Shown here: one piece after another, positions 3,172 to 18,222 of the stretch | How the letters are laid out: every line of letters starts with the position of its first letter | Numbering within the stretch: position 1 is the stretch's first letter | From: an uncultured Synergistales bacterium | GTDB lineage: Bacteria > Synergistota > Synergistia > Synergistales > Aminobacteriaceae | Length of the DNA: 64,000 nucleotides | NCBI GenBank assembly: GCA_905233725.1 | Contig: CAJOEM010000001.1 | Span: 2,772 to 66,771 of the forward strand | Direction of reading: 5' to 3' | Translations under genes and position numbers: made by a program | The notes under the pieces: model-generated | Told to the model about the DNA's origin: nothing | Database searches by the model: none | Seen by the model: the letters and a program-made list of their open reading frames with translations, nothing else

Positions 3172-4179
3172 TTACGCATGAGTTTTCAGAGTTTTGAGTT
3201 CGTTCATGAGATTTTCGAGAATCGTTAGTGTGTCTGAATTTCCGGATTCGTTTTTCGAGAACATGTTATATAGCTTGTCTTTCTGTGAGCGCGTGAGAAT
3301 TTCTTCGAGGCTGATCAGGTCGTGGCGCAGATTTCGGACGCGTTGGCTTGTGTTTGAATCTGGATTCGGATTCGGGCTTGAGTTCGTGAATAATTCCGGG
3401 ATTTTCAAGGCAGCGGATTTTGCTGCGAGATTGTCGTGAAATTCTGGAGTTTGCGTGAGAATTTGTTTTGCCGATTCGAGAATTACTGGCAATTTGCACG
3501 AACTTCCGGTGAAGAATATTTTCTCGGGTGAATATTCGCTTTCCAAACGTCTGAGTGTGTGAAGGATTTTTCGAATCTGGAAGCGTATCAGGCGTTCAAA
3601 ATCATAGCGTGAGATTTTAGCGTGGCGGTAAATTACGTGTTCTGATTCTGAGAGAGCAATCTTGAGATTCTCGGCATCGTGTAAAACTGAGCTGTCAATC
3701 GAACTCAACAAGAATCTCTCACGCAGCCATTCAGCAAAAATTCTGTCGAACGAATCGCCGCTTAAATCCGGGAATAATATTTTCTCGTGAACATGATTAT
3801 CTTTCGCAACGATTGCCCGGGAATTTGCTTTGCCGATGTCGAATACTAACGCCGTTTTACACGCAATACTGGAAATTATCGCGTCGTCGGGGTCAATAAC
3901 TTTCACGCTGTCAAAACCCGAAGTCTTCGCACTGAGCAGAAATTTGTCACGTTCGAGTTTGTGTAGATTTTCTGAGAGAGACAGCACGCAAGAATCCACG
4001 AAATCGTTGAAGAATATCTCGCAGTTTTCGCGCAATTCGAGAAAGTTTTCGCACGCGCAAATAACTTCCGCACGAGAATTTTTCGGGTTCACGTACGCAG
4101 CTCTTAGCCTGAAATTCCCGGCATCAATTCCGATTGTCAGGTGTGTTAGGTGTGATAAATTCTGCTTCAAGTCTTGCAT
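3172..4179 (-). CDS. Degenerate Hsp70/actin-fold (ASKHA) ATPase-domain protein with no substrate-binding domain and a coiled-coil tail
   Basis: Remnants of Hsp70 nucleotide-binding-domain motifs occur in the correct order: IGIDAGN (phosphate-1), VFDIGKANSRAIV (phosphate-2, Gly loop lost), LSGDSFDRIFAEWL, ENLKIALSES, ISRYDFERLI, IFFTGSSCKLPVI. Last gene of the prmA-mtaB operon. Confidence 0.4.
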   Translation of the reverse strand: MQDLKQNLSHLTHLTIGIDAGNFRLRAAYVNPKNSRAEVICACENFLELRENCEIFFNDFVDSCVLSLSENLHKLERDKFLLSAKTSGFDSVKVIDPDDAIISSIACKTALVFDIGKANSRAIVAKDNHVHEKILFPDLSGDSFDRIFAEWLRERFLLSSIDSSVLHDAENLKIALSESEHVIYRHAKISRYDFERLIRFQIRKILHTLRRLESEYSPEKIFFTGSSCKLPVILESAKQILTQTPEFHDNLAAKSAALKIPELFTNSSPNPNPDSNTSQRVRNLRHDLISLEEILTRSQKDKLYNMFSKNESGNSDTLTILENLMNELKTLKTHA

Positions 4180-4486
4180 CTGAGAAAGTTTTCGTACTCA
4201 CAAATAATTTCCGCTTCACGACGAGAATTTTTCGGGTTCACGTGCGCAGCTCTTAGCCTGAAATTCCCGGCGTAAATTCCGATTGTCAGGTGTGTTAGGT
4301 GTGATAAATTCTGCTTCAAGTCTTGCATCTGAGAAAGTTTTCGTACTCACAAATAATTTCCGCACGAGAATTTTTCGTGTTCACGTGCGCAGCTCTTAAC
4401 CTGAAATTCCCGGCGTAAATTCCGATTGTCAGGTGTGTTAGGTGTGATAAATTCTGCTTCAAGTCTTGCATCTGAGAAAGTTTTCG
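4039..4486. repeat. Tandem triplication with units 4039-4181, 4182-4330 and 4331-4473 (143/149/143 bp). The unit is the 5' UTR plus the first ~45 codons of the Hsp70-like gene.
   Basis: The 13-mer gagaaagttttcg recurs at 4039, 4182, 4331 and 4474 and delimits near-identical units. The ATGCAAGACTTGAAGCAG start region (minus strand) recurs at 4179, 4328 and 4471. Confidence 0.92.
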
Positions 4487-13711: not shown

Positions 13712-13757
13712 AGCCAGAATTTCGGCTATAGATCATGTATTAGAAAACGAATTTCGA

Positions 13758-13791
13758 GAATCCCGGATTAACCGTTCGGGGTTCTTTTTTT
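13758..13791 (+). terminator. Rho-independent terminator after groEL
   Basis: Stem GAATCCCG / CGGGGTTC (7/8 paired), followed by a T7 run. Confidence 0.6.
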
Positions 13792-13864
13792 ATTTTAACG
13801 CGAGACGAAAATCACGAGAAATGAGGTTGACTTTTGAGATATGAGCAACATAATTCATAATATT

Positions 13865-13929
13865 ACCAGAGACCAGAGACCAGAGACCAGAGACCAGAGA
13901 CCAGAGACCAGAGACCAGAGACCAGAGAC
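13865..13929. repeat. Perfect heptanucleotide microsatellite (CCAGAGA) x 9
   Basis: Counted directly: nine uninterrupted CCAGAGA units at 13866-13928, plus flanking partial units. Confidence 0.97.
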
Positions 13930-13955
13930 GCTTAATTTGGCTTCTTACGTGCTTT

Positions 13956-14717
13956 GTGTTTATGCTGGGCGTGTTCATAAGTTACAGGTTCGTTCGACAT
14001 GAACTCAATCAGAATGCTAATATCCGAGACTTACAAGCTTCTGTTGCCAAACTCAGTGCAAAGTTGAGGCACATATCTACTGGAAATGTTCAGTGGCTCG
14101 AAAGTGGCTATAATTACTTGGCTATCGGGAACAGCATTACGCTGCATGGCAAGAGCAGTTTTTGGTGGAATGAAATCGGCATGGCTGCGTCAGACGCAAA
14201 ACACGATTACTTTCACTTAGTTGTCTCTCACTTGAAGATTAGTAATGCCGAAGTTATGGCGAAAGCGTTCAATTTTAGCGTGTGGGAAGTTCAGGGACAT
14301 GATCGTGACGAAACTCTGGATTTCTTGGATCCATACCTGAGTCAACGTTTGAATCTGGTAACGATACAGCTCGCGGAAAACGCGTCAGACTTAGCGACCT
14401 ACGAGGAAGATTACGTGTCTTTAATCGAATACGTGAAAACGAAAGCTCCGAATGCCAGAATATTGGTAGTTGGTGATTTCTGGAGCAGGGGAAATCGCAA
14501 TGAGCTGAAAATCAATGCTGTGAACAAGACAAAAGCTGAATATGTTTCGCTCAATGGCATAATTGACAACAAGCGTTACTACTGCGGATTAAACATGATA
14601 GTTTACGATGACGACGGTAATGAACACATTGTTGAACATAACGGTGTCGCAAAGCATCCGGGCGATATAGGGATGAGAGCAATCGCAGACAGGATAATTG
14701 AGGTGCTAGATAAATGA
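13956..14717 (+). CDS. SGNH/GDSL-family hydrolase. The listed start is the first in-frame GTG, and the N-terminus is probably incomplete (see findings).
   Basis: Block I LAIGNSIT (Ser nucleophile), block III-like QLAENASD, VVGDFW, and block V AKHPGDIGM (His). The frame stays open upstream through the repeat and encodes RRLIWLLTCFVFMLGVFISY (TM anchor), but has no in-frame start codon there. Confidence 0.6.
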   Translation: MFMLGVFISYRFVRHELNQNANIRDLQASVAKLSAKLRHISTGNVQWLESGYNYLAIGNSITLHGKSSFWWNEIGMAASDAKHDYFHLVVSHLKISNAEVMAKAFNFSVWEVQGHDRDETLDFLDPYLSQRLNLVTIQLAENASDLATYEEDYVSLIEYVKTKAPNARILVVGDFWSRGNRNELKINAVNKTKAEYVSLNGIIDNKRYYCGLNMIVYDDDGNEHIVEHNGVAKHPGDIGMRAIADRIIEVLDK

Positions 14718-14738
14718 TTTTTGCATTATAATTGCAGC

Positions 14739-15461
14739 ATGAATACGAAACATGAACACATAAATCGCTCGCTGCGGAAAAAAATCGGTCACGCAATTTC
14801 GCAATGGAATATGATTTCGGAGAATGATCGGGTTTTAGTTGGGCTGTCTGGTGGCAAAGACAGCTTCTTGCTATTGCACGCGCTGCATGAGTTGACAAAA
14901 CGTTCGCCGGTGAAATTTGAAGTTGCTGCCGTAACGGTTGGATTAACAGGAATGAATCTTGAGCCGCTGCGTGAATATTGCGCCTCGAAAAATATTGCTC
15001 TGGAAATTATTTCTCAGCCCATAATCGAGATAATCAAGCTGCGTGATGAACGTTCGCCGTGTTCGTTCTGTGCGAATATGCGCCGCGGAATTATTAGCTC
15101 TTTCGCAAGTGAGCATAATTTTAATAAACTCGCACTCGGCCACACGATTGATGACGCGATTGAGACGTTCGTCATGAATATTTTATATACTGGTCGAGCA
15201 AAAAGTTTCAAGCCGCTTGCTCTGATGTCACGAACAAATGTTACGGTGATTCGTCCGCTGGTTCTTGCGAGTGAGAACGCAATTATCGACGAGGTGAAAA
15301 GATTGGAGCTGCCGATTATTTCGAGCCCGTGTCCTTTCGCAGGTCACACGCAACGTCAGAAAGTTCGCGAATTAATCGCAAGCCTGAGAAATTATATTCC
15401 GGATATTGACGGCAAAATTCTTCACGCATTGATGAGTATCTCGCAAGATGATTGCTGGTGA
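14739..15461 (+). CDS. ttcA: tRNA 2-thiocytidine biosynthesis protein TtcA-like PP-loop ATPase
   Basis: LRKKIGHAISQWNMISENDRVLVGLSGGKDSFLLLHAL (PP-loop SGGKDS) and CSFCANMRRG (CxxC). The ORF is open from TTG at 14721. Confidence 0.7.
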   Translation: MNTKHEHINRSLRKKIGHAISQWNMISENDRVLVGLSGGKDSFLLLHALHELTKRSPVKFEVAAVTVGLTGMNLEPLREYCASKNIALEIISQPIIEIIKLRDERSPCSFCANMRRGIISSFASEHNFNKLALGHTIDDAIETFVMNILYTGRAKSFKPLALMSRTNVTVIRPLVLASENAIIDEVKRLELPIISSPCPFAGHTQRQKVRELIASLRNYIPDIDGKILHALMSISQDDCW

Positions 15462-15465
15462 GAAA

Positions 15466-18054
15466 ATGATTATTCCAGATGACGTGAAAATAACTCCGTG
15501 GCTCGAACAATATCGCAAATTCAAAGCCGAGTATCCCGACGCGATTTTGTTTTTCAGAATGGGCGATTTCTACGAGATGTTTTTCGAGGACGCACGAATT
15601 GCAGCTTCGGTTTTGGAAATTGCTTTGACCGCACGAGATTCTGAGAAAAAAATCCCGATGGCAGGCATTCCGCATCATGCGCTGAATCAATATTTGGGAC
15701 GATTGCTCAAAGCCGGCTACAGAGTCGCAATTTGTGAGCAGTTGGAGCAAACTGGAGATTCTAAAATCGTTAAGCGCAAAATTGTTCGAATAGTTACCCC
15801 CGGAACTTACGTACCCGAAGAGAATGACGATAATTCCGGACACCTGGCTGCGATATTGCCGCTGAAAAATCATGTTGCTGTAGCATTATTATCTGTTGAT
15901 ACGGGCAGACTTGAAGCCGGGACTGTTTCTGAACGTGAAGCTGCTGCGTTGATTGCTGCGTTTTCACCCGGGGAAATTCTTGTGCCTGCGAGTGTGCGAA
16001 AATTTCCGGAGTTCCTGAGCGAGAATAATTACGCGTTACGTGAAGTCAGCTCAGAAAATTTTAAGATCCAGAATGCTGCGTCAAAACTCAAGAGAGCGCT
16101 TAATGCCAGGAATCTTGAATCGTTCGGGATTAGCGAGAATGACGCGTGTGTAGGCTGTGCGTGGGCTGTGCTGGAATATCTTTCGGCAACACAGTTCAGT
16201 TCGCTGAATAACGTGCTGAAGATTGCGCCGCTAAAATCGACTGAATGCATGATTCTTGACACGTCCGCGCAGAAAAATCTCGAGATAATTCCTGAAGCGA
16301 AAATTTCCAGTGATAGCATTTCGCTTTTTGAATCGCTTGATAAGTGCAGAACTCCGATGGGGCGACGAACTCTCAGAAATTGGCTTCTGCGACCGCTGAT
16401 TGATGTGAAGGCGATTAAACGCAGGCAAGATTCGATTAAGATATTATTCGACGAACGTGAGAAATGTTCAGAACTTGCGGATTTGTTGGCTGGAACTCGT
16501 GACGTTGAACGCGCGTTATCAAGATTGGCTCTGGGAACTGGCAACCCGTCGGATTTGGGAGTGATTCGTGACACTCTGAGAATAATTCCGGATTTGAAAT
16601 CGCTGGCGTTTCATGATTCGCGTGATTCGATTTCTGAGATTTTGCGAACGTTGCCGGACTTGAGTGATTTGAGCGAATATCTTGGGAGAGCGCTGCGTGA
16701 TAATTTGCCAAAAATTCTGGGAACTGGCGAGCTGATTCGTGAGGGATTTAACTCGGAGCTGGATAACTGGCGGAATTTTGCGCTTAAAGGCTCGGCTTGG
16801 CTGGAAAATTATCTCGAGAAAATGCGCGCCTCTTCCGAAACACCGAAATTGAAAGTTGGCTATAATCGTGCGTTTGGCTATTATCTTGAAATCGGCAAGA
16901 CCGGCCTCGTGAAAACTCCGCAGAATTTTCAGCAGCGTCAGACACTCGTGAATGCGAAACGCTACGTAACGCCTGAATTGCAGAATTTTCAGCTCAAAAT
17001 GGAAAACAGCGAATCGGAAATTTCACGGATTGAGAAAGATTTATACCAGGAAATTTTGTCGCGAGTGATTCAGGACAGCACGAATTTGCAGCTGACTGGG
17101 AAATTGCTTGGGATTCTTGATTGCGCTTGTTCTGCAGCAATAATAGCGCGTGAGAGAAATTATGTCTGTCCGGAAATCGACAACTCCGAAGTAATCGCGA
17201 TAAAATCCGCAAGACATCCAGTAATCGAAGCCGAAATGCGAGACTCAGTATTTGTTCCGAATGATGCGAAACTCGATGAAAAATCCCGTGTGATAATTCT
17301 GACTGGACCGAACATGGCTGGGAAATCGACTTGGCTGCGAATGACTGCGTTAATTGCGATAATGTCTCAGGCTGGCTTGTGGGTTCCTGCTGAGAGTGCG
17401 AGGATCGGAATTATAGACAGGATTTTCACACGCATCGGCGCACGTGACGATCTTGTTCACGGCAACAGCACGTTCATGATCGAAATGCTCGAGACCGCGA
17501 ATATCTTGAATAATGCAACAGATCGCAGCTTGATAATTCTTGACGAAGTTGGGCGAGGTACGGCGACTTGGGACGGCATGAGCATAGCCTGGGCAGTTCT
17601 GGAATATTTGCAGGCGAACTCGAAAGCGCGAGTATTATTTGCGACGCATTATCATGAACTCACGAGGCTTGAGAAAAATCTCGATGGTGTGAAAAATTTC
17701 AGCATGGCAGTTTCTGAGGCCAAAGATGGGATATTATTCCTGCATCAGGTCGTAGCCGGCGCAGCAGATAGATCTTACGGGATCGAAGTTGCAAGATTAG
17801 CAGGTTTGCCAAATCCGGTCTTGAAACGCGCGTTTGAATTGCTGGAAATTTTCGAGCGTGACGGTTTGCAAAAAATTCCCTTGTCTGAGCCGTTGCCACA
17901 GAATGCTCTCAGGCGGCAAATCTCGTTATTCTCACCTGAAGCTGACGGCATAATCGAGGAAATTTCGAATCTTGATCTTGATAACACGACACCCATGCAG
18001 GCTCTGAAAATTCTCGGAAAATTCAAGAGCAAATCTCAGGAAATCCTACACTAA
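15466..18054 (+). CDS. mutS: DNA mismatch repair protein MutS
   Basis: TPWLEQYRKFKAEYPDAILFFRMGDFYEMFFEDA (mismatch-binding domain), Walker A GPNMAGKST, and DEVGRGT. The ATG at 15466 follows the ttcA stop and is preceded by GGTGAG. Confidence 0.95.
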   Translation: MIIPDDVKITPWLEQYRKFKAEYPDAILFFRMGDFYEMFFEDARIAASVLEIALTARDSEKKIPMAGIPHHALNQYLGRLLKAGYRVAICEQLEQTGDSKIVKRKIVRIVTPGTYVPEENDDNSGHLAAILPLKNHVAVALLSVDTGRLEAGTVSEREAAALIAAFSPGEILVPASVRKFPEFLSENNYALREVSSENFKIQNAASKLKRALNARNLESFGISENDACVGCAWAVLEYLSATQFSSLNNVLKIAPLKSTECMILDTSAQKNLEIIPEAKISSDSISLFESLDKCRTPMGRRTLRNWLLRPLIDVKAIKRRQDSIKILFDEREKCSELADLLAGTRDVERALSRLALGTGNPSDLGVIRDTLRIIPDLKSLAFHDSRDSISEILRTLPDLSDLSEYLGRALRDNLPKILGTGELIREGFNSELDNWRNFALKGSAWLENYLEKMRASSETPKLKVGYNRAFGYYLEIGKTGLVKTPQNFQQRQTLVNAKRYVTPELQNFQLKMENSESEISRIEKDLYQEILSRVIQDSTNLQLTGKLLGILDCACSAAIIARERNYVCPEIDNSEVIAIKSARHPVIEAEMRDSVFVPNDAKLDEKSRVIILTGPNMAGKSTWLRMTALIAIMSQAGLWVPAESARIGIIDRIFTRIGARDDLVHGNSTFMIEMLETANILNNATDRSLIILDEVGRGTATWDGMSIAWAVLEYLQANSKARVLFATHYHELTRLEKNLDGVKNFSMAVSEAKDGILFLHQVVAGAADRSYGIEVARLAGLPNPVLKRAFELLEIFERDGLQKIPLSEPLPQNALRRQISLFSPEADGIIEEISNLDLDNTTPMQALKILGKFKSKSQEILH

Positions 18055-18222
18055 TATGCATACTCTATAGCGATTAAAGCGATTAAAGCGATTAAATAGT
18101 ATATAATATCTTCGTAGTATAATACTTTTGGTTCTCACTGGAGTTTGTCGCATAAGTGGAGAGTCCGTTTACCGCTTTGTGTGGATTTAAAGAATAAAAA
18201 ATTATTTCAGGAGGTTTTTGTT

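What the first reader, a model, noticed from the sequence alone, without database searches (positions are those of the whole stretch)
13841..14000. A 9-copy CCAGAGA heptanucleotide tract separates an upstream ATG from a membrane-anchored SGNH hydrolase ORF and is one unit out of frame: candidate slipped-strand phase-variation switch
Seen in the sequence: nine perfect CCAGAGA units lie at 13866-13928. The hydrolase frame (codon phase of 13956) stays open upstream through the whole repeat, back to a TAA at 13851. It encodes ...PETRDQR(n)...RRLIWLLTCFVFMLGVFISYRF, a basic stretch plus an 18-residue TM anchor. That frame contains no ATG, GTG or TTG before the GTG at 13956, which cuts the hydrophobic helix in half. 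An ATG at 13841 (MSNIIHNITRDQRPETRDQR...) reads into the repeat in a different frame and terminates at TGA 14000-14002 after 53 codons. Seven nt is not a multiple of three. Losing one unit, or gaining two, would therefore fuse ATG 13841 in frame to the anchor and the SGNH domain. With nine units the gene looks OFF or N-terminally crippled. Heptanucleotide and other non-triplet microsatellites are an established contingency-locus mechanism (e.g. 7-bp repeats at Haemophilus hmw loci). I am not aware of it being described for Synergistota-like genomes. SGNH enzymes often (de)acylate surface glycans, so the switch could vary the cell surface.
Basis: partly seen in the sequence, partly recalled or inferred. 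Interest (0 to 1): 0.75.

Follow-up and report, generated by a model that had tools for sequence, protein, structure and literature searches.

The report
Heptamer-repeat on/off switch in surface-enzyme gene
A run of nine 7-base repeats at the start of an optional membrane-anchored enzyme gene in an uncultured Synergistaceae bacterium changes length between otherwise identical strains (4, 8 or 9 copies), putting the gene in or out of frame; this is a classic slipped-strand on/off switch, seen here in a new phylum and enzyme family.

Summary
(CCAGAGA)x9 lies at 13866-13928. ATG 13841 is one unit out of frame with a 0.8-kb ORF whose product needs that start to have a complete membrane anchor.

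Public metagenome assemblies of the same species carry 4, 8 or 9 units on an otherwise identical gene. The 8-unit allele encodes exactly the predicted 289-aa in-frame protein. All 31 aligned homologues start before a full transmembrane helix, and none starts at the GTG 13956 equivalent. A confident AlphaFold model matches only SGNH/GDSL structures. Homologues sit in surface-polysaccharide loci.

Two additions:
- The gene is a 937-nt accessory cassette between groEL and a ttcA-like gene. It is absent from several co-occurring strains.
- Simple repeats at the 5' end recur across the family: (GACA)n, (GAACAACA)n and poly-G, each with variable length and ON or OFF frames.

The closest known analogue is E. 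coli K1 NeuO, which has a heptanucleotide tract in the 5' coding region of a mobile O-acetyltransferase gene. This is a new member of a known kind. Reversible switching within a clone, expression and the substrate remain untested.

The parts
13756..13796 (+). Intrinsic terminator of groEL (13-pair stem plus T-run). The accessory cassette begins inside its T-run.
   Evidence: Terminator scan. The sequence is shared by filled and empty alleles up to 13789.
13790..14726 (+). Single-gene accessory cassette of 937 nt (leader, repeat and hydrolase ORF). In 'empty' strains it is replaced by 14 nt (gttagcgttttttg).
   Evidence: The distance from groEL to the ttcA-like gene is 1020-1027 nt in filled contigs. 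It is 104 nt in L130, L131, L138, L139, L141 and L146. Junctions are mapped.
13810..13828 (+). Leader segment aatcacgagaaatgaggt, containing the only SD-like GAGG (13823-13826, 14 nt before the ATG). It is shared with a possible third arrangement seen in L133 and L003.
13841..13843 (+). ATG start codon of the full-length (ON) protein.
   Evidence: It is the only canonical start that can feed the hydrolase frame. It is used by the 289-aa proteins P0001 and P0122 called in public assemblies.
13866..13928 (+). (CCAGAGA)x9 hypermutable tract. It encodes TRDQRPE repeats and has no stop codon in any forward frame. ON requires n = 2 mod 3.
   Evidence: Alleles of 4, 8 and 9 units are seen.
13841..14002 (+). 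Dead-end 53-codon reading frame produced by the 9-unit (OFF) allele of the window.
13932..13985 (+). Codes the 18-residue TM anchor LIWLLTCFVFMLGVFISY, preceded by RR. GTG 13956 lies in the middle of it.
   Evidence: The best 19-residue Kyte-Doolittle window scores 1.94 for the full-length protein against 0.39 for a GTG 13956 product. The AlphaFold model has a helix at residues 24-78. The anchor is conserved in all 31 homologues.
13956..14717 (+). The ORF as it reads in the window (253 aa from the internal GTG, or 251 aa from ATG 13962 as called in databases). This is the truncated, anchor-less product of OFF alleles, if it is made at all.
   Evidence: P0121 (251 aa) is found on 6 contigs. No SD precedes either internal start.
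14109..14714 (+). SGNH-fold catalytic domain. Block I is G-N-S with Ser at 14133-14135 (S96 of P0001). Asn178 is invariant. The His of HPGD is at 14655-14657 (H270).
   Evidence: Invariant columns in alignment A1. AlphaFold model with pLDDT 89.2 and pTM 0.80. Foldseek hits are BT3161, PatB, OatA, CE2 enzymes and sialate esterases.

Best explanation
The tract is a slipped-strand contingency switch. Replication slippage adds or removes CCAGAGA units in the 5' coding region of an accessory gene.

When the unit number is 2 mod 3 (for example 8), ATG 13841 is in frame. The cell then makes a 289-aa protein with four parts:
- a short disordered cytoplasmic tail of TRDQRPE repeats;
- an Arg-Arg motif followed by one TM helix (N-in orientation);
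- a helical stalk;
- an extracytoplasmic SGNH domain.

With any other number, translation from ATG 13841 ends after 19-53 codons. This is the case for 9 units in the window and for 4 units in other strains. The only in-frame internal starts (GTG 13956, ATG 13962) lack a ribosome-binding site and would yield an enzyme with half an anchor, so the gene is functionally OFF.

Shown here: the tract, the frame logic, natural 4-, 8- and 9-unit alleles on an otherwise identical gene, the need for the upstream start, and the SGNH fold.

Inferred: the change arises by slippage at high, reversible frequency within a lineage. The enzyme adds or removes O-acyl groups on a cell-surface polysaccharide, so switching varies the surface, for example against phages or host factors.
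For: (1) Tract and frame arithmetic are confirmed.
(2) The exact predicted ON protein exists: P0001, 289 aa, 100% identity and coverage.
(3) Unit counts of 4, 8 and 9 occur in 10 contigs with identical 45/40-nt flanks.
(4) The flanks are 99.6-100% identical, and the only indel inside the cassette is the tract. The cassettes of L008 (8 units) and L003 (4 units) have no SNP relative to the window (9 units). The 8-unit allele sits on two SNP haplotypes. The tract therefore mutates much faster than single bases.
(5) The tracts are 28-63 nt, shorter than the k = 141 or 87 used by the MEGAHIT assemblies that show all three alleles.
(6) All 31 homologues start before a complete TM helix. Hydropathy is 1.94 for the full anchor against 0.39 for the truncated one.
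(7) The downstream ORF is intact in all OFF alleles and keeps all family-invariant residues.
(8) The SGNH fold is confirmed.
(9) Homologues lie in surface-glycan loci, next to AT3, MBOAT, Wzy, Wzx, glycosyltransferase and hexapeptide acetyltransferase genes.
(10) Variable 5' simple repeats recur in other lineages of the family. Density is 0.74 per kb against 0.10 per kb elsewhere in the same loci. (GACA)n has 4, 14 or 25 units. Poly-G has 8-12 with ON and OFF states. (GAACAACA)n has at least 6 units.
(11) There is a direct mechanistic precedent in NeuO.
Against: - There are no read-level or single-clone data, so the length differences could be fixed differences between co-occurring strains rather than ongoing switching.
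- Four of 10 contigs are ON, which cannot be distinguished from the 1/3 expected for a neutral tract. Some assemblies may also be re-assemblies of the same samples: L006 and L007 are both 1012 nt.
- Only 4, 8 and 9 units were seen, with no single-step series such as 7, 8, 9, 10.
- The SD-like GAGG is 14 nt from ATG 13841, longer than the 6-11 nt typical in this window.
- No convincing promoter lies upstream of the ATG. The two best -35/-10 matches would start the mRNA downstream of it, although the scan is not above chance.
- The gene is dispensable, being absent in several strains.
- No AT3 or MBOAT partner and no glycan locus lies in the 64-kb window.
Confidence: 0.75

Rival explanations
1. 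The tract is a neutral, drifting microsatellite in a dispensable, recently acquired gene. It varies in length, but this is not an evolved switch, and OFF alleles are simply on the way to gene loss.
For: The gene is absent from several strains in the same samples. The ON fraction of 4/10 is close to the random 1/3. No partner genes are nearby.
Against: - Nine uninterrupted perfect units are retained. All OFF alleles keep an intact downstream ORF with every family-invariant residue.
- Different simple repeats occupy the same N-terminal position in at least five other lineages of the family. That recurrence is hard to explain without selection for mutability.
- For NeuO, an accepted contingency gene, 65.6% of genomes are OFF. 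An ON fraction near one third is therefore not evidence against a switch.
Confidence: 0.13
2. The repeat acts in the promoter or 5' UTR. Transcription starts at about 13861-13868 from TTGACT/TTGAGA-16-CATAAT, the protein starts at GTG 13956 or ATG 13962, and unit number tunes transcription or mRNA stability, as at the H. influenzae hmw loci.
For: Two 10/12 sigma-70-like matches straddle ATG 13841. The SD spacing for ATG 13841 is long. The hmw heptamers work upstream of the gene.
Against: - The promoter matches are not above shuffles (4 found against 2.5 +/- 1.4).
- GTG 13956 and ATG 13962 have no SD and cut the conserved TM helix in half.
- The codons between the tract and the GTG encode the N-terminal half of an anchor that every homologue has.
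- Gene callers find the 289-aa ORF in 8-unit contigs.
Confidence: 0.06
3. The length differences are assembly or sequencing artefacts, with the tandem repeat collapsed or expanded by short-read assemblers.
For: Several contigs break near the locus. The SPAdes-style scaffolds (GLEN20-2 series) may have used k no larger than 55, which is shorter than a 56-63-nt tract.
Against: Three MEGAHIT k141 assemblies from one study give 9, 4 and 8 units, and a k87 assembly gives 9. All tracts are shorter than k. Each allele was recovered at least three times. The contig breaks coincide with the cassette presence/absence junctions.
Confidence: 0.03

Closest known systems
NeuO, the polysialic-acid O-acetyltransferase of E. 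coli K1 (cargo gene of prophage CUS-3)
   Same: NeuO has a heptanucleotide tandem repeat in the 5' coding region. It is translated full-length in only one of three frame classes. It is an accessory, horizontally carried gene present in only part of the population. Its unit number varies widely between genomes (3-53), and about two thirds of genomes are OFF. The enzyme acylates a surface glycan (PMC13001214). In both cases the repeat encodes a heptapeptide N-terminal tail.
   Different: The unit sequence differs (AAGACTC). NeuO is ON when n is divisible by 3, whereas here ON needs n = 2 mod 3. To my knowledge NeuO is a soluble hexapeptide-repeat acyltransferase, whereas this protein is a membrane-anchored SGNH-fold enzyme with no Hexapep match. 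The carrier here is a bare 937-nt cassette between housekeeping genes, not a prophage. The host is Synergistaceae, not Enterobacteriaceae. Function and switching are experimentally shown for NeuO and only inferred here.
Haemophilus influenzae heptanucleotide SSRs: (TGAAAGA)n upstream of hmw1A/hmw2A and (AACAACC)n within the HI1369 homologue
   Same: These are 7-nt units used as contingency repeats. The HI1369 tract lies inside the ORF and causes frameshifts (PMC2651432).
   Different: The gene classes differ (an adhesin and a TonB-dependent receptor).
Phase-variable O-acetylation genes of mucosal pathogens, for example H. influenzae oafA
   Same: A simple repeat controls an enzyme that modifies a surface glycan and uses an extracytoplasmic SGNH domain. 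oafA carries a GCAA tetranucleotide tract. That OafA has an AT3-SGNH architecture rests on my own knowledge. The review read shows the fused architecture for Salmonella OafA/OafB, OatA and PglI.
   Different: In those proteins the SGNH domain is fused to a 10-11-TM AT3 domain. Here it stands alone behind a single TM helix. The oafA tract is mid-gene, not at the 5' end.
Neisseria opa genes (CTCTT pentamer repeats in the signal-peptide coding region)
   Same: A non-triplet repeat lies in the N-terminal targeting region of an envelope protein, and translational frame switching gives ON or OFF. This comparison rests on my own knowledge and was not checked here.
   Different: The unit is 5 nt, the products are outer-membrane adhesins rather than enzymes, and opa is a multi-copy gene family.
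Stand-alone or fused SGNH O-acetyltransferases and esterases of cell-envelope glycans (PatB, OatA C-terminal domain, AlgX, CE2 esterases, sialate O-acetylesterases)
   Same: They share the fold. PatB, OatA, CE2 enzymes and sialate esterases are among the best Foldseek hits. Two of four homologues examined lie directly after an AT3 gene, and one is followed by an MBOAT gene. This resembles MBOAT plus a separate SGNH protein, as in AlgI/AlgX.
   Different: There is no sequence-level match to any PDB chain or NCBIfam model. The Asp of the canonical DxxH block is not conserved. Whether the enzyme is a transferase or an esterase, and its substrate, are unknown.

Membership tests
SSR-mediated translational phase-variable (contingency) gene | A perfect tandem repeat, with a unit length that is not a multiple of 3, inside the 5' coding region | tested here: met
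   (CCAGAGA)x9 lies at 13866-13928, 25 nt after ATG 13841.
SSR-mediated translational phase-variable (contingency) gene | Repeat number differs among otherwise near-identical genomes | tested here: met
   4, 8 and 9 units occur in 10 contigs whose flanks are 99.6-100% identical. Identical cassettes carry all three lengths.
SSR-mediated translational phase-variable (contingency) gene | Both in-frame (ON) and out-of-frame (OFF) alleles occur, and the rest of the ORF is intact | tested here: met
   P0001 and P0122 (289 aa, ON) versus P0121 and the window (OFF). There are no other disabling changes.
SSR-mediated translational phase-variable (contingency) gene | High-frequency, reversible switching within a clonal population | not testable with these tools
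   This needs raw reads or cultures. Only consensus contigs are available.
SSR-mediated translational phase-variable (contingency) gene | Protein or phenotype present in ON cells and absent in OFF cells | not testable with these tools
   This is inferred only from the loss of the start codon and half of the TM helix.
SGNH/GDSL hydrolase superfamily | Three-layer alpha/beta/alpha SGNH fold | tested here: met
   The AlphaFold model has pLDDT 89.2 and pTM 0.80. Forty-two Foldseek PDB hits have E <= 0.001, and all 50 hits listed are SGNH/GDSL proteins. The top hit is 4h08 at E = 2.7e-7, with target-normalised TM-scores up to 0.67.
SGNH/GDSL hydrolase superfamily | Conserved Ser (block I), Gly (II), Asn (III) and His (V) | tested here: met
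   G94-N95-S96, G111, N178 and H270 are invariant in 32 sequences. Assigning them to the canonical blocks is by inspection, not by structural superposition.
SGNH/GDSL hydrolase superfamily | Pfam or NCBIfam model score above the curated threshold | tested here: not met
   PF13472 gives E = 0.018 and 16 bits against a cutoff of 32.9. There is no NCBIfam hit. Many homologues do carry precomputed PF13472 or PF00657 hits and NCBI 'SGNH/GDSL hydrolase family protein' names. This is a divergent subfamily.
SGNH/GDSL hydrolase superfamily | Asp three residues before the catalytic His (DxxH) | tested here: not met
   Block V reads GVAxHPGD, and no acidic residue is conserved at His-3. A Ser-His dyad or another acid residue is possible.
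NeuO-type O-acetyltransferase | Hexapeptide-repeat (left-handed beta-helix) acyltransferase domain | tested here: not met
   There is no Hexapep match and the fold is SGNH. The gene works like neuO but is not a homologue.
NeuO-type O-acetyltransferase | Carried as prophage cargo | tested here: not met
   The cassette lies between groEL and ttcA-mutS with no phage genes adjacent. Viral contigs hold only distant relatives that match the domain alone, at 23-37% identity.
AT3-SGNH (OafA/OatA-type) O-acetyltransferase | N-terminal 10-11-TM AT3 (PF01757) domain fused to the SGNH domain | tested here: not met
   The protein has a single TM helix. There is no AT3 or MBOAT gene in the window by tblastn. 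AT3 is a separate upstream gene in the homologue loci L149 and L153.

The most novel reading that the evidence does not exclude
This locus is one instance of a convergent, cross-phylum pattern. A stand-alone, single-pass membrane-anchored SGNH enzyme family of gut and rumen anaerobes has repeatedly been placed under simple-repeat control at its N-terminal tail. The tracts are a heptamer in Synergistaceae, and (GACA)n, (GAACAACA)n and poly-G in other lineages. The heptamer, tetramer and octamer tracts encode a hydrophilic peptide and have no stop codon in any forward frame.

In Synergistaceae the switch travels with the gene as a 0.94-kb 'mobile contingency cassette' with no phage or transposase. 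I am not aware of any earlier candidate SSR contingency locus in Synergistota. The library search returned no paper describing SSR phase variation in this phylum.

The finding would also point to a family of separate SGNH partners for AT3-only or MBOAT acyltransferases.
Probability: 0.5. Interest if true: 0.7.

Novelty: new member of a known kind. Interest (0 to 1): 0.55.

Why it matters
Slipped-strand contingency loci are documented mainly in a few host-adapted pathogens such as Haemophilus, Neisseria, Campylobacter and Helicobacter, and in E. coli K1 neuO.

Here the same logic appears in an uncultured commensal of a little-studied phylum, with natural ON and OFF alleles visible in public metagenomes. 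The same enzyme family carries other kinds of hypermutable tracts in other gut and rumen bacteria. This suggests that stochastic variation of surface-glycan acylation is a common bet-hedging strategy in anaerobic gut communities, possibly driven by phage or host pressure.

There are two practical consequences:
- Gene callers truncate or split such genes (251 aa against 289 aa), so the family is misannotated whenever the tract is OFF.
- Assemblies break at these tracts.

The frequent placement of homologues beside AT3 or MBOAT genes also bears on an open question raised in the AT3 review: whether AT3-only acyltransferases use a separate SGNH partner.

Tried and rejected
- Exact look-up of the 253-aa GTG-start product found nothing on record, because callers use ATG 13962 (251 aa) or ATG 13841 (289 aa).
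This organism's reference genome was not among the 120 loci stored, so the one scan of that collection was poorly spent.
- The JGI metagenome scan for the downstream flank found 0 hits. The species seems absent from that collection.
- A profile of the family against PDB sequences gave no hit, and NCBIfam gave none. Only the fold comparison identified the domain.
- Rfam gave one sub-threshold hit (rnk_pseudo, 22.5 bits against a gathering score of 55) lying over the groEL terminator. I treat it as chance.
- The promoter scan did not exceed shuffles, so the transcription start is unresolved.
- tblastn with AT3 and MBOAT neighbours of homologues against the window found nothing.
- The automated ON/OFF calling for poly-G homologues picked wrong G-runs or internal starts. 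I discarded it in favour of the frame-by-frame translations. The tetranucleotide results are sound.
- The contexts of (CCAGAGA)n tracts in other phyla showed no consistent position relative to ORFs.
- The third structural arrangement (L133 and L003 tails) could not be resolved.
Full report
**1. The observation**

Nine perfect CCAGAGA units lie at 13866-13928. TRF reports 13865-13929, period 7, 9.3 copies and 100% matches. A two-unit probe with one mismatch allowed matches 8 times, against 0.01 expected in dinucleotide shuffles. No other long non-triplet perfect repeat exists in the 64 kb. The rest are A/T runs of 8-9, one (AC)5 and two 9-nt units at 3 copies.

The hydrolase frame is open from TAA 13851 through the tract and has no ATG, GTG or TTG before GTG 13956. 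ATG 13841 reads the tract in another frame and stops at TGA 14000-14002 after 53 codons.

I rebuilt the locus in silico with 5 to 13 units:
- n = 5, 8 or 11 fuses ATG 13841 to the hydrolase frame (289 aa for n = 8).
- n = 6, 9 or 12 gives the 53-aa class.
- n = 7, 10 or 13 (and 4) stops at TAA 13933-13935.

The unit contains no stop codon in any forward frame. All three frames read cyclic permutations of TRDQRPE.

**2. Natural alleles**

I searched the protein collection with the in-silico 8-unit product. It returned P0001, a 289-aa protein with 100% identity over 100% of the query. Its 90% cluster also holds P0122 (289 aa) and P0121 (251 aa, called from ATG 13962; on 6 contigs, including one NCBI genome).

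I fetched the contigs that carry these proteins and the exact flanking GroEL and PP-loop proteins. Ten contigs, the window included, carry the gene. Their unit counts are:

| Units | Frame state | Contigs |
|---|---|---|
| 8 | ON | ERZ27234820 k141_1844915; SAMEA5961694 scaffold_4051; SAMEA5961695 scaffold_2838; ERZ1667814 scaffold_73 |
| 4 | OFF | SAMEA5961697 scaffold_21599; ERZ1667815 scaffold_332091; ERZ27234819 k141_409362 |
| 9 | OFF | the window; ERZ27234818 k141_1814062; ERZ1667847 k87_17543367 |

The 45 nt before and 40 nt after the tract are identical in all ten. Outside the tract the contigs are 99.6-100% identical to the window. Within the cassette the tract is the only indel. The cassettes of L008 (8 units) and L003 (4 units) have no SNP relative to the window (9 units). 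The 8-unit allele occurs on two different SNP haplotypes. The tract therefore changes much faster than single bases do.

Assembly artefact is unlikely. Three MEGAHIT k = 141 assemblies of one study give 9, 4 and 8 units, and every tract (28-63 nt) is shorter than k.

Two caveats apply. Some ERZ series may be re-assemblies of the same samples, since L006 and L007 are both 1012 nt. No read-level data are available, so switching within a clone is not shown.

**3. Why the upstream start is needed**

There are 722 homologues at E <= 0.001, and the nearest outside this species is 63% identical. In an alignment of 32 sequences, every homologue begins with Met, a few basic residues and a complete TM helix of about 20 residues that ends at the conserved (G)YRF(I)xHE motif. 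None begins at the position of GTG 13956, which falls in the middle of the helix.

The best 19-residue Kyte-Doolittle window is 1.94 for the full-length protein (LIWLLTCFVFMLGVFISYR) and 0.39 for a product starting at GTG 13956. Shine-Dalgarno sequences at 6-11 nt are common in the window. GTG 13956 and ATG 13962 have none. ATG 13841 has GAGG at a rather long 14 nt.

The repeat-encoded tail is an insertion relative to the homologues.

**4. What the protein is**

Pfam gives only a sub-threshold GDSL_2 match (E = 0.018). NCBIfam and a family profile against PDB sequences give nothing. An AlphaFold model built from the 32-sequence alignment is confident (pLDDT 89.2, pTM 0.80). Residues 1-23 are disordered, residues 24-78 form one long helix covering the TM segment and a stalk, and an alpha/beta domain follows.

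The 50 Foldseek PDB hits listed are all SGNH/GDSL proteins. They include BT3161, the PatB and OatA peptidoglycan O-acetyltransferase domains, CE2 and acetyl-mannan esterases, and sialate O-acetylesterases. G-N-S96, N178 and H270 (in HPGD) are invariant. The canonical Asp at His-3 is not conserved.

The Arg-Arg before the helix implies an N-in topology, with the catalytic domain outside the membrane. This is an inference.

**5. Functional context**

In the window the gene is an orphan between groES-groEL and a ttcA-like PP-loop gene, followed by mutS and pfk. There is no AT3 or MBOAT gene in the 64 kb. Homologues, however, sit in surface-polysaccharide loci:
- P0013 lies among Wzy, GT2, a hexapeptide acetyltransferase and Glf.
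- P0016 (Butyrivibrio sp. INlla14) lies directly between an AT3 gene and an MBOAT gene, amid glycosyltransferases.
- P0008 lies among Wzx, DegT, FdtA, GT2 and YfhO.
- P0088 lies directly after an AT3 gene and near GtrA.

Of 33 upstream neighbours in metagenome loci, most are glycosyltransferases, hexapeptide acetyltransferases or sugar-nucleotide enzymes. One is an MBOAT and one an AT3.

In AT3-SGNH enzymes the extracytoplasmic SGNH domain performs the final acyl transfer, and MBOAT systems use a separate SGNH protein (PMC9558356). The most likely role is therefore O-acyl transfer to, or removal from, a cell-surface glycan. This is an inference, at about 0.6 confidence.

**6. The gene is an accessory cassette**

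Six contigs with the same exact GroEL and PP-loop proteins have only 104 nt between the two genes (L130, L131, L138, L139, L141, L146). Window 13790-14726 (937 nt: leader, tract and ORF) replaces 14 nt of the empty allele.

Empty and filled contigs co-occur in the same samples (ERZ27234819, SAMEA5961695, ERZ1667815). The cassette has 43% GC against 45.5% for the window. It has no mobility gene.

L133 and L003 diverge on either side of an 18-nt leader segment, which hints at a third arrangement with an additional gene. This is unresolved.

**7. Recurrence in the family**

P0013's gene has a G10 run 36 nt after its ATG. Other assemblies have G8, with the ORF shifted or re-called from other starts.

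I scanned about 95 homologue loci from metagenome and viral collections. Seventeen have a simple repeat in the roughly 240 nt around the N-terminal anchor, a density of 0.74 per kb against 0.10 per kb elsewhere in the same loci. The Poisson probability is 8e-10 per locus, or 0.011 if only seven lineages are counted. The loci fall into distinct lineages at 90% or more nucleotide identity:
- **(GACA)n** lies directly after the start codon, with n = 4, 14 and 25. All three are OFF, since ON needs n divisible by 3. Two more contigs break inside the tract.
- **Poly-G** lies at the Gly-Gly end of the TM helix in four lineages, with both ON states (L176 G9; L199 and L201 G8) and OFF states (L177-L179 G8, L181 G9, L183 G12, L194 and L198 G8).
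- **(GAACAACA)n**, with at least 6 units, lies before the basic stretch and TM helix (L209).

The encoded peptides (TRDQRPE, TDRQ, TTEQQNNR) are all hydrophilic. This convergence is the strongest argument that the mutability is selected rather than incidental.

**8. Comparison with known systems**

The closest analogue is neuO of E. coli K1. It has a heptanucleotide tract (AAGACTC) in the 5' coding region and is translated full-length only when the number is divisible by 3. It is prophage cargo present in part of the population. Genomes carry 3-53 units, and 65.6% of complete genomes are OFF (PMC13001214).

A coding heptamer, (AACAACC)n, occurs in an HI1369 homologue, and oafA carries a GCAA tract (PMC2651432).

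The present gene works like neuO but is not homologous to it. It has an SGNH fold rather than a hexapeptide-repeat fold, it is not on a prophage, and the viral contigs hold only distant relatives.

The library search for Synergistetes together with phase variation or simple sequence repeats ranked first two papers that mention the phylum only once. The one I read, a frameshift survey, lists it only in a taxonomic table. None of the listed titles concerns phase variation in this phylum.

**9. Verdict**

This is a new member of a known kind: simple-repeat translational phase variation of a surface-modifying enzyme. Two further features go beyond the original finding. The switch rides on a small accessory cassette, and simple-repeat control recurs across the enzyme family.

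Confidence that the tract toggles the gene between ON and OFF in natural populations is about 0.85. Confidence that this is true reversible phase variation is about 0.7. Confidence that the target is a surface glycan is about 0.6.

Noticed in passing
window 13790-14726; L130, L131, L138, L139, L141, L146: The whole hydrolase gene is a presence/absence polymorphism. In six contigs with the identical GroEL and PP-loop proteins it is replaced by 14 nt (gttagcgttttttg). Empty and filled versions co-occur in the same samples.
   Followed up: yes
L133 4169-4214; L003/L142 1-50 (window 13810-13828): A possible third arrangement of the groEL|ttcA site. L133 leaves the window sequence after 'aaatgaggt' (13828). 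L003 joins it at 13810 from unrelated sequence. Both share the 18-nt leader/SD segment, as if another gene using the same leader were inserted.
   Followed up: partly
L147/L148 6037-6046; L154, L155; L164-L170; L176-L183; L194, L198, L199, L201; L209: Homologues of the enzyme in other organisms carry other hypermutable tracts at the same N-terminal position, with length variation and both ON and OFF frames. The tracts are poly-G (8-12), (GACA)4-25 and (GAACAACA) with at least 6 units. Several contigs break inside the tracts.
   Followed up: yes
window 18069-18096: An AGCGATTAA 9-nt tandem repeat (3.1 copies) lies 15 nt after the mutS stop. L001 has one unit fewer. It is the only other indel between the window and L001 across the 8.9 kb they share.
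   Followed up: partly
L143 (ERZ1667816 scaffold_73112), equivalent to window 17405-17426: One strain contig, also present in an NCBI genome and seen in 4 samples, has a 22-nt deletion inside mutS. It splits the gene into 669-aa and 192-aa pieces. This is either a natural mismatch-repair-defective variant or an assembly error. Its repeat count is unknown because the contig starts inside the hydrolase gene.
   Followed up: partly
window 14727-14741: The ttcA-like PP-loop gene (ATG 14739) has a perfect TATAAT 6 nt upstream and no SD, which suggests a leaderless mRNA. The hexamer is retained in both filled and empty alleles (TGTATAAT in the empty allele).
   Followed up: no
L009-L128 (genome-contig scan): The same heptamer, (CCAGAGA)n with 3-20 units, occurs in at least 120 stretches of species-representative genomes from many phyla. 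Some MAGs carry many loci, for example Planctomycetota JBIILZ01 with at least 9 contigs and 'uncultured proteobacterium' CALATR01 with at least 6. There is no consistent position relative to ORFs.
   Followed up: partly
window 4039-4486: A 143-bp tandem repeat has 3.1 copies at 93% identity (TRF score 779). Each copy contains a TGTCAGGTG mini-repeat.
   Followed up: no
L149 4915-8350; L153 4826-6849: In Butyrivibrio sp. INlla14 and one other contig, the stand-alone SGNH gene lies immediately downstream of an AT3-only acyltransferase gene. In Butyrivibrio it also lies upstream of an MBOAT gene. This looks like a split version of AT3-SGNH O-acetyltransferases. It bears on the question raised in PMC9558356 of whether AT3-only proteins use a separate SGNH partner.
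   Followed up: partly
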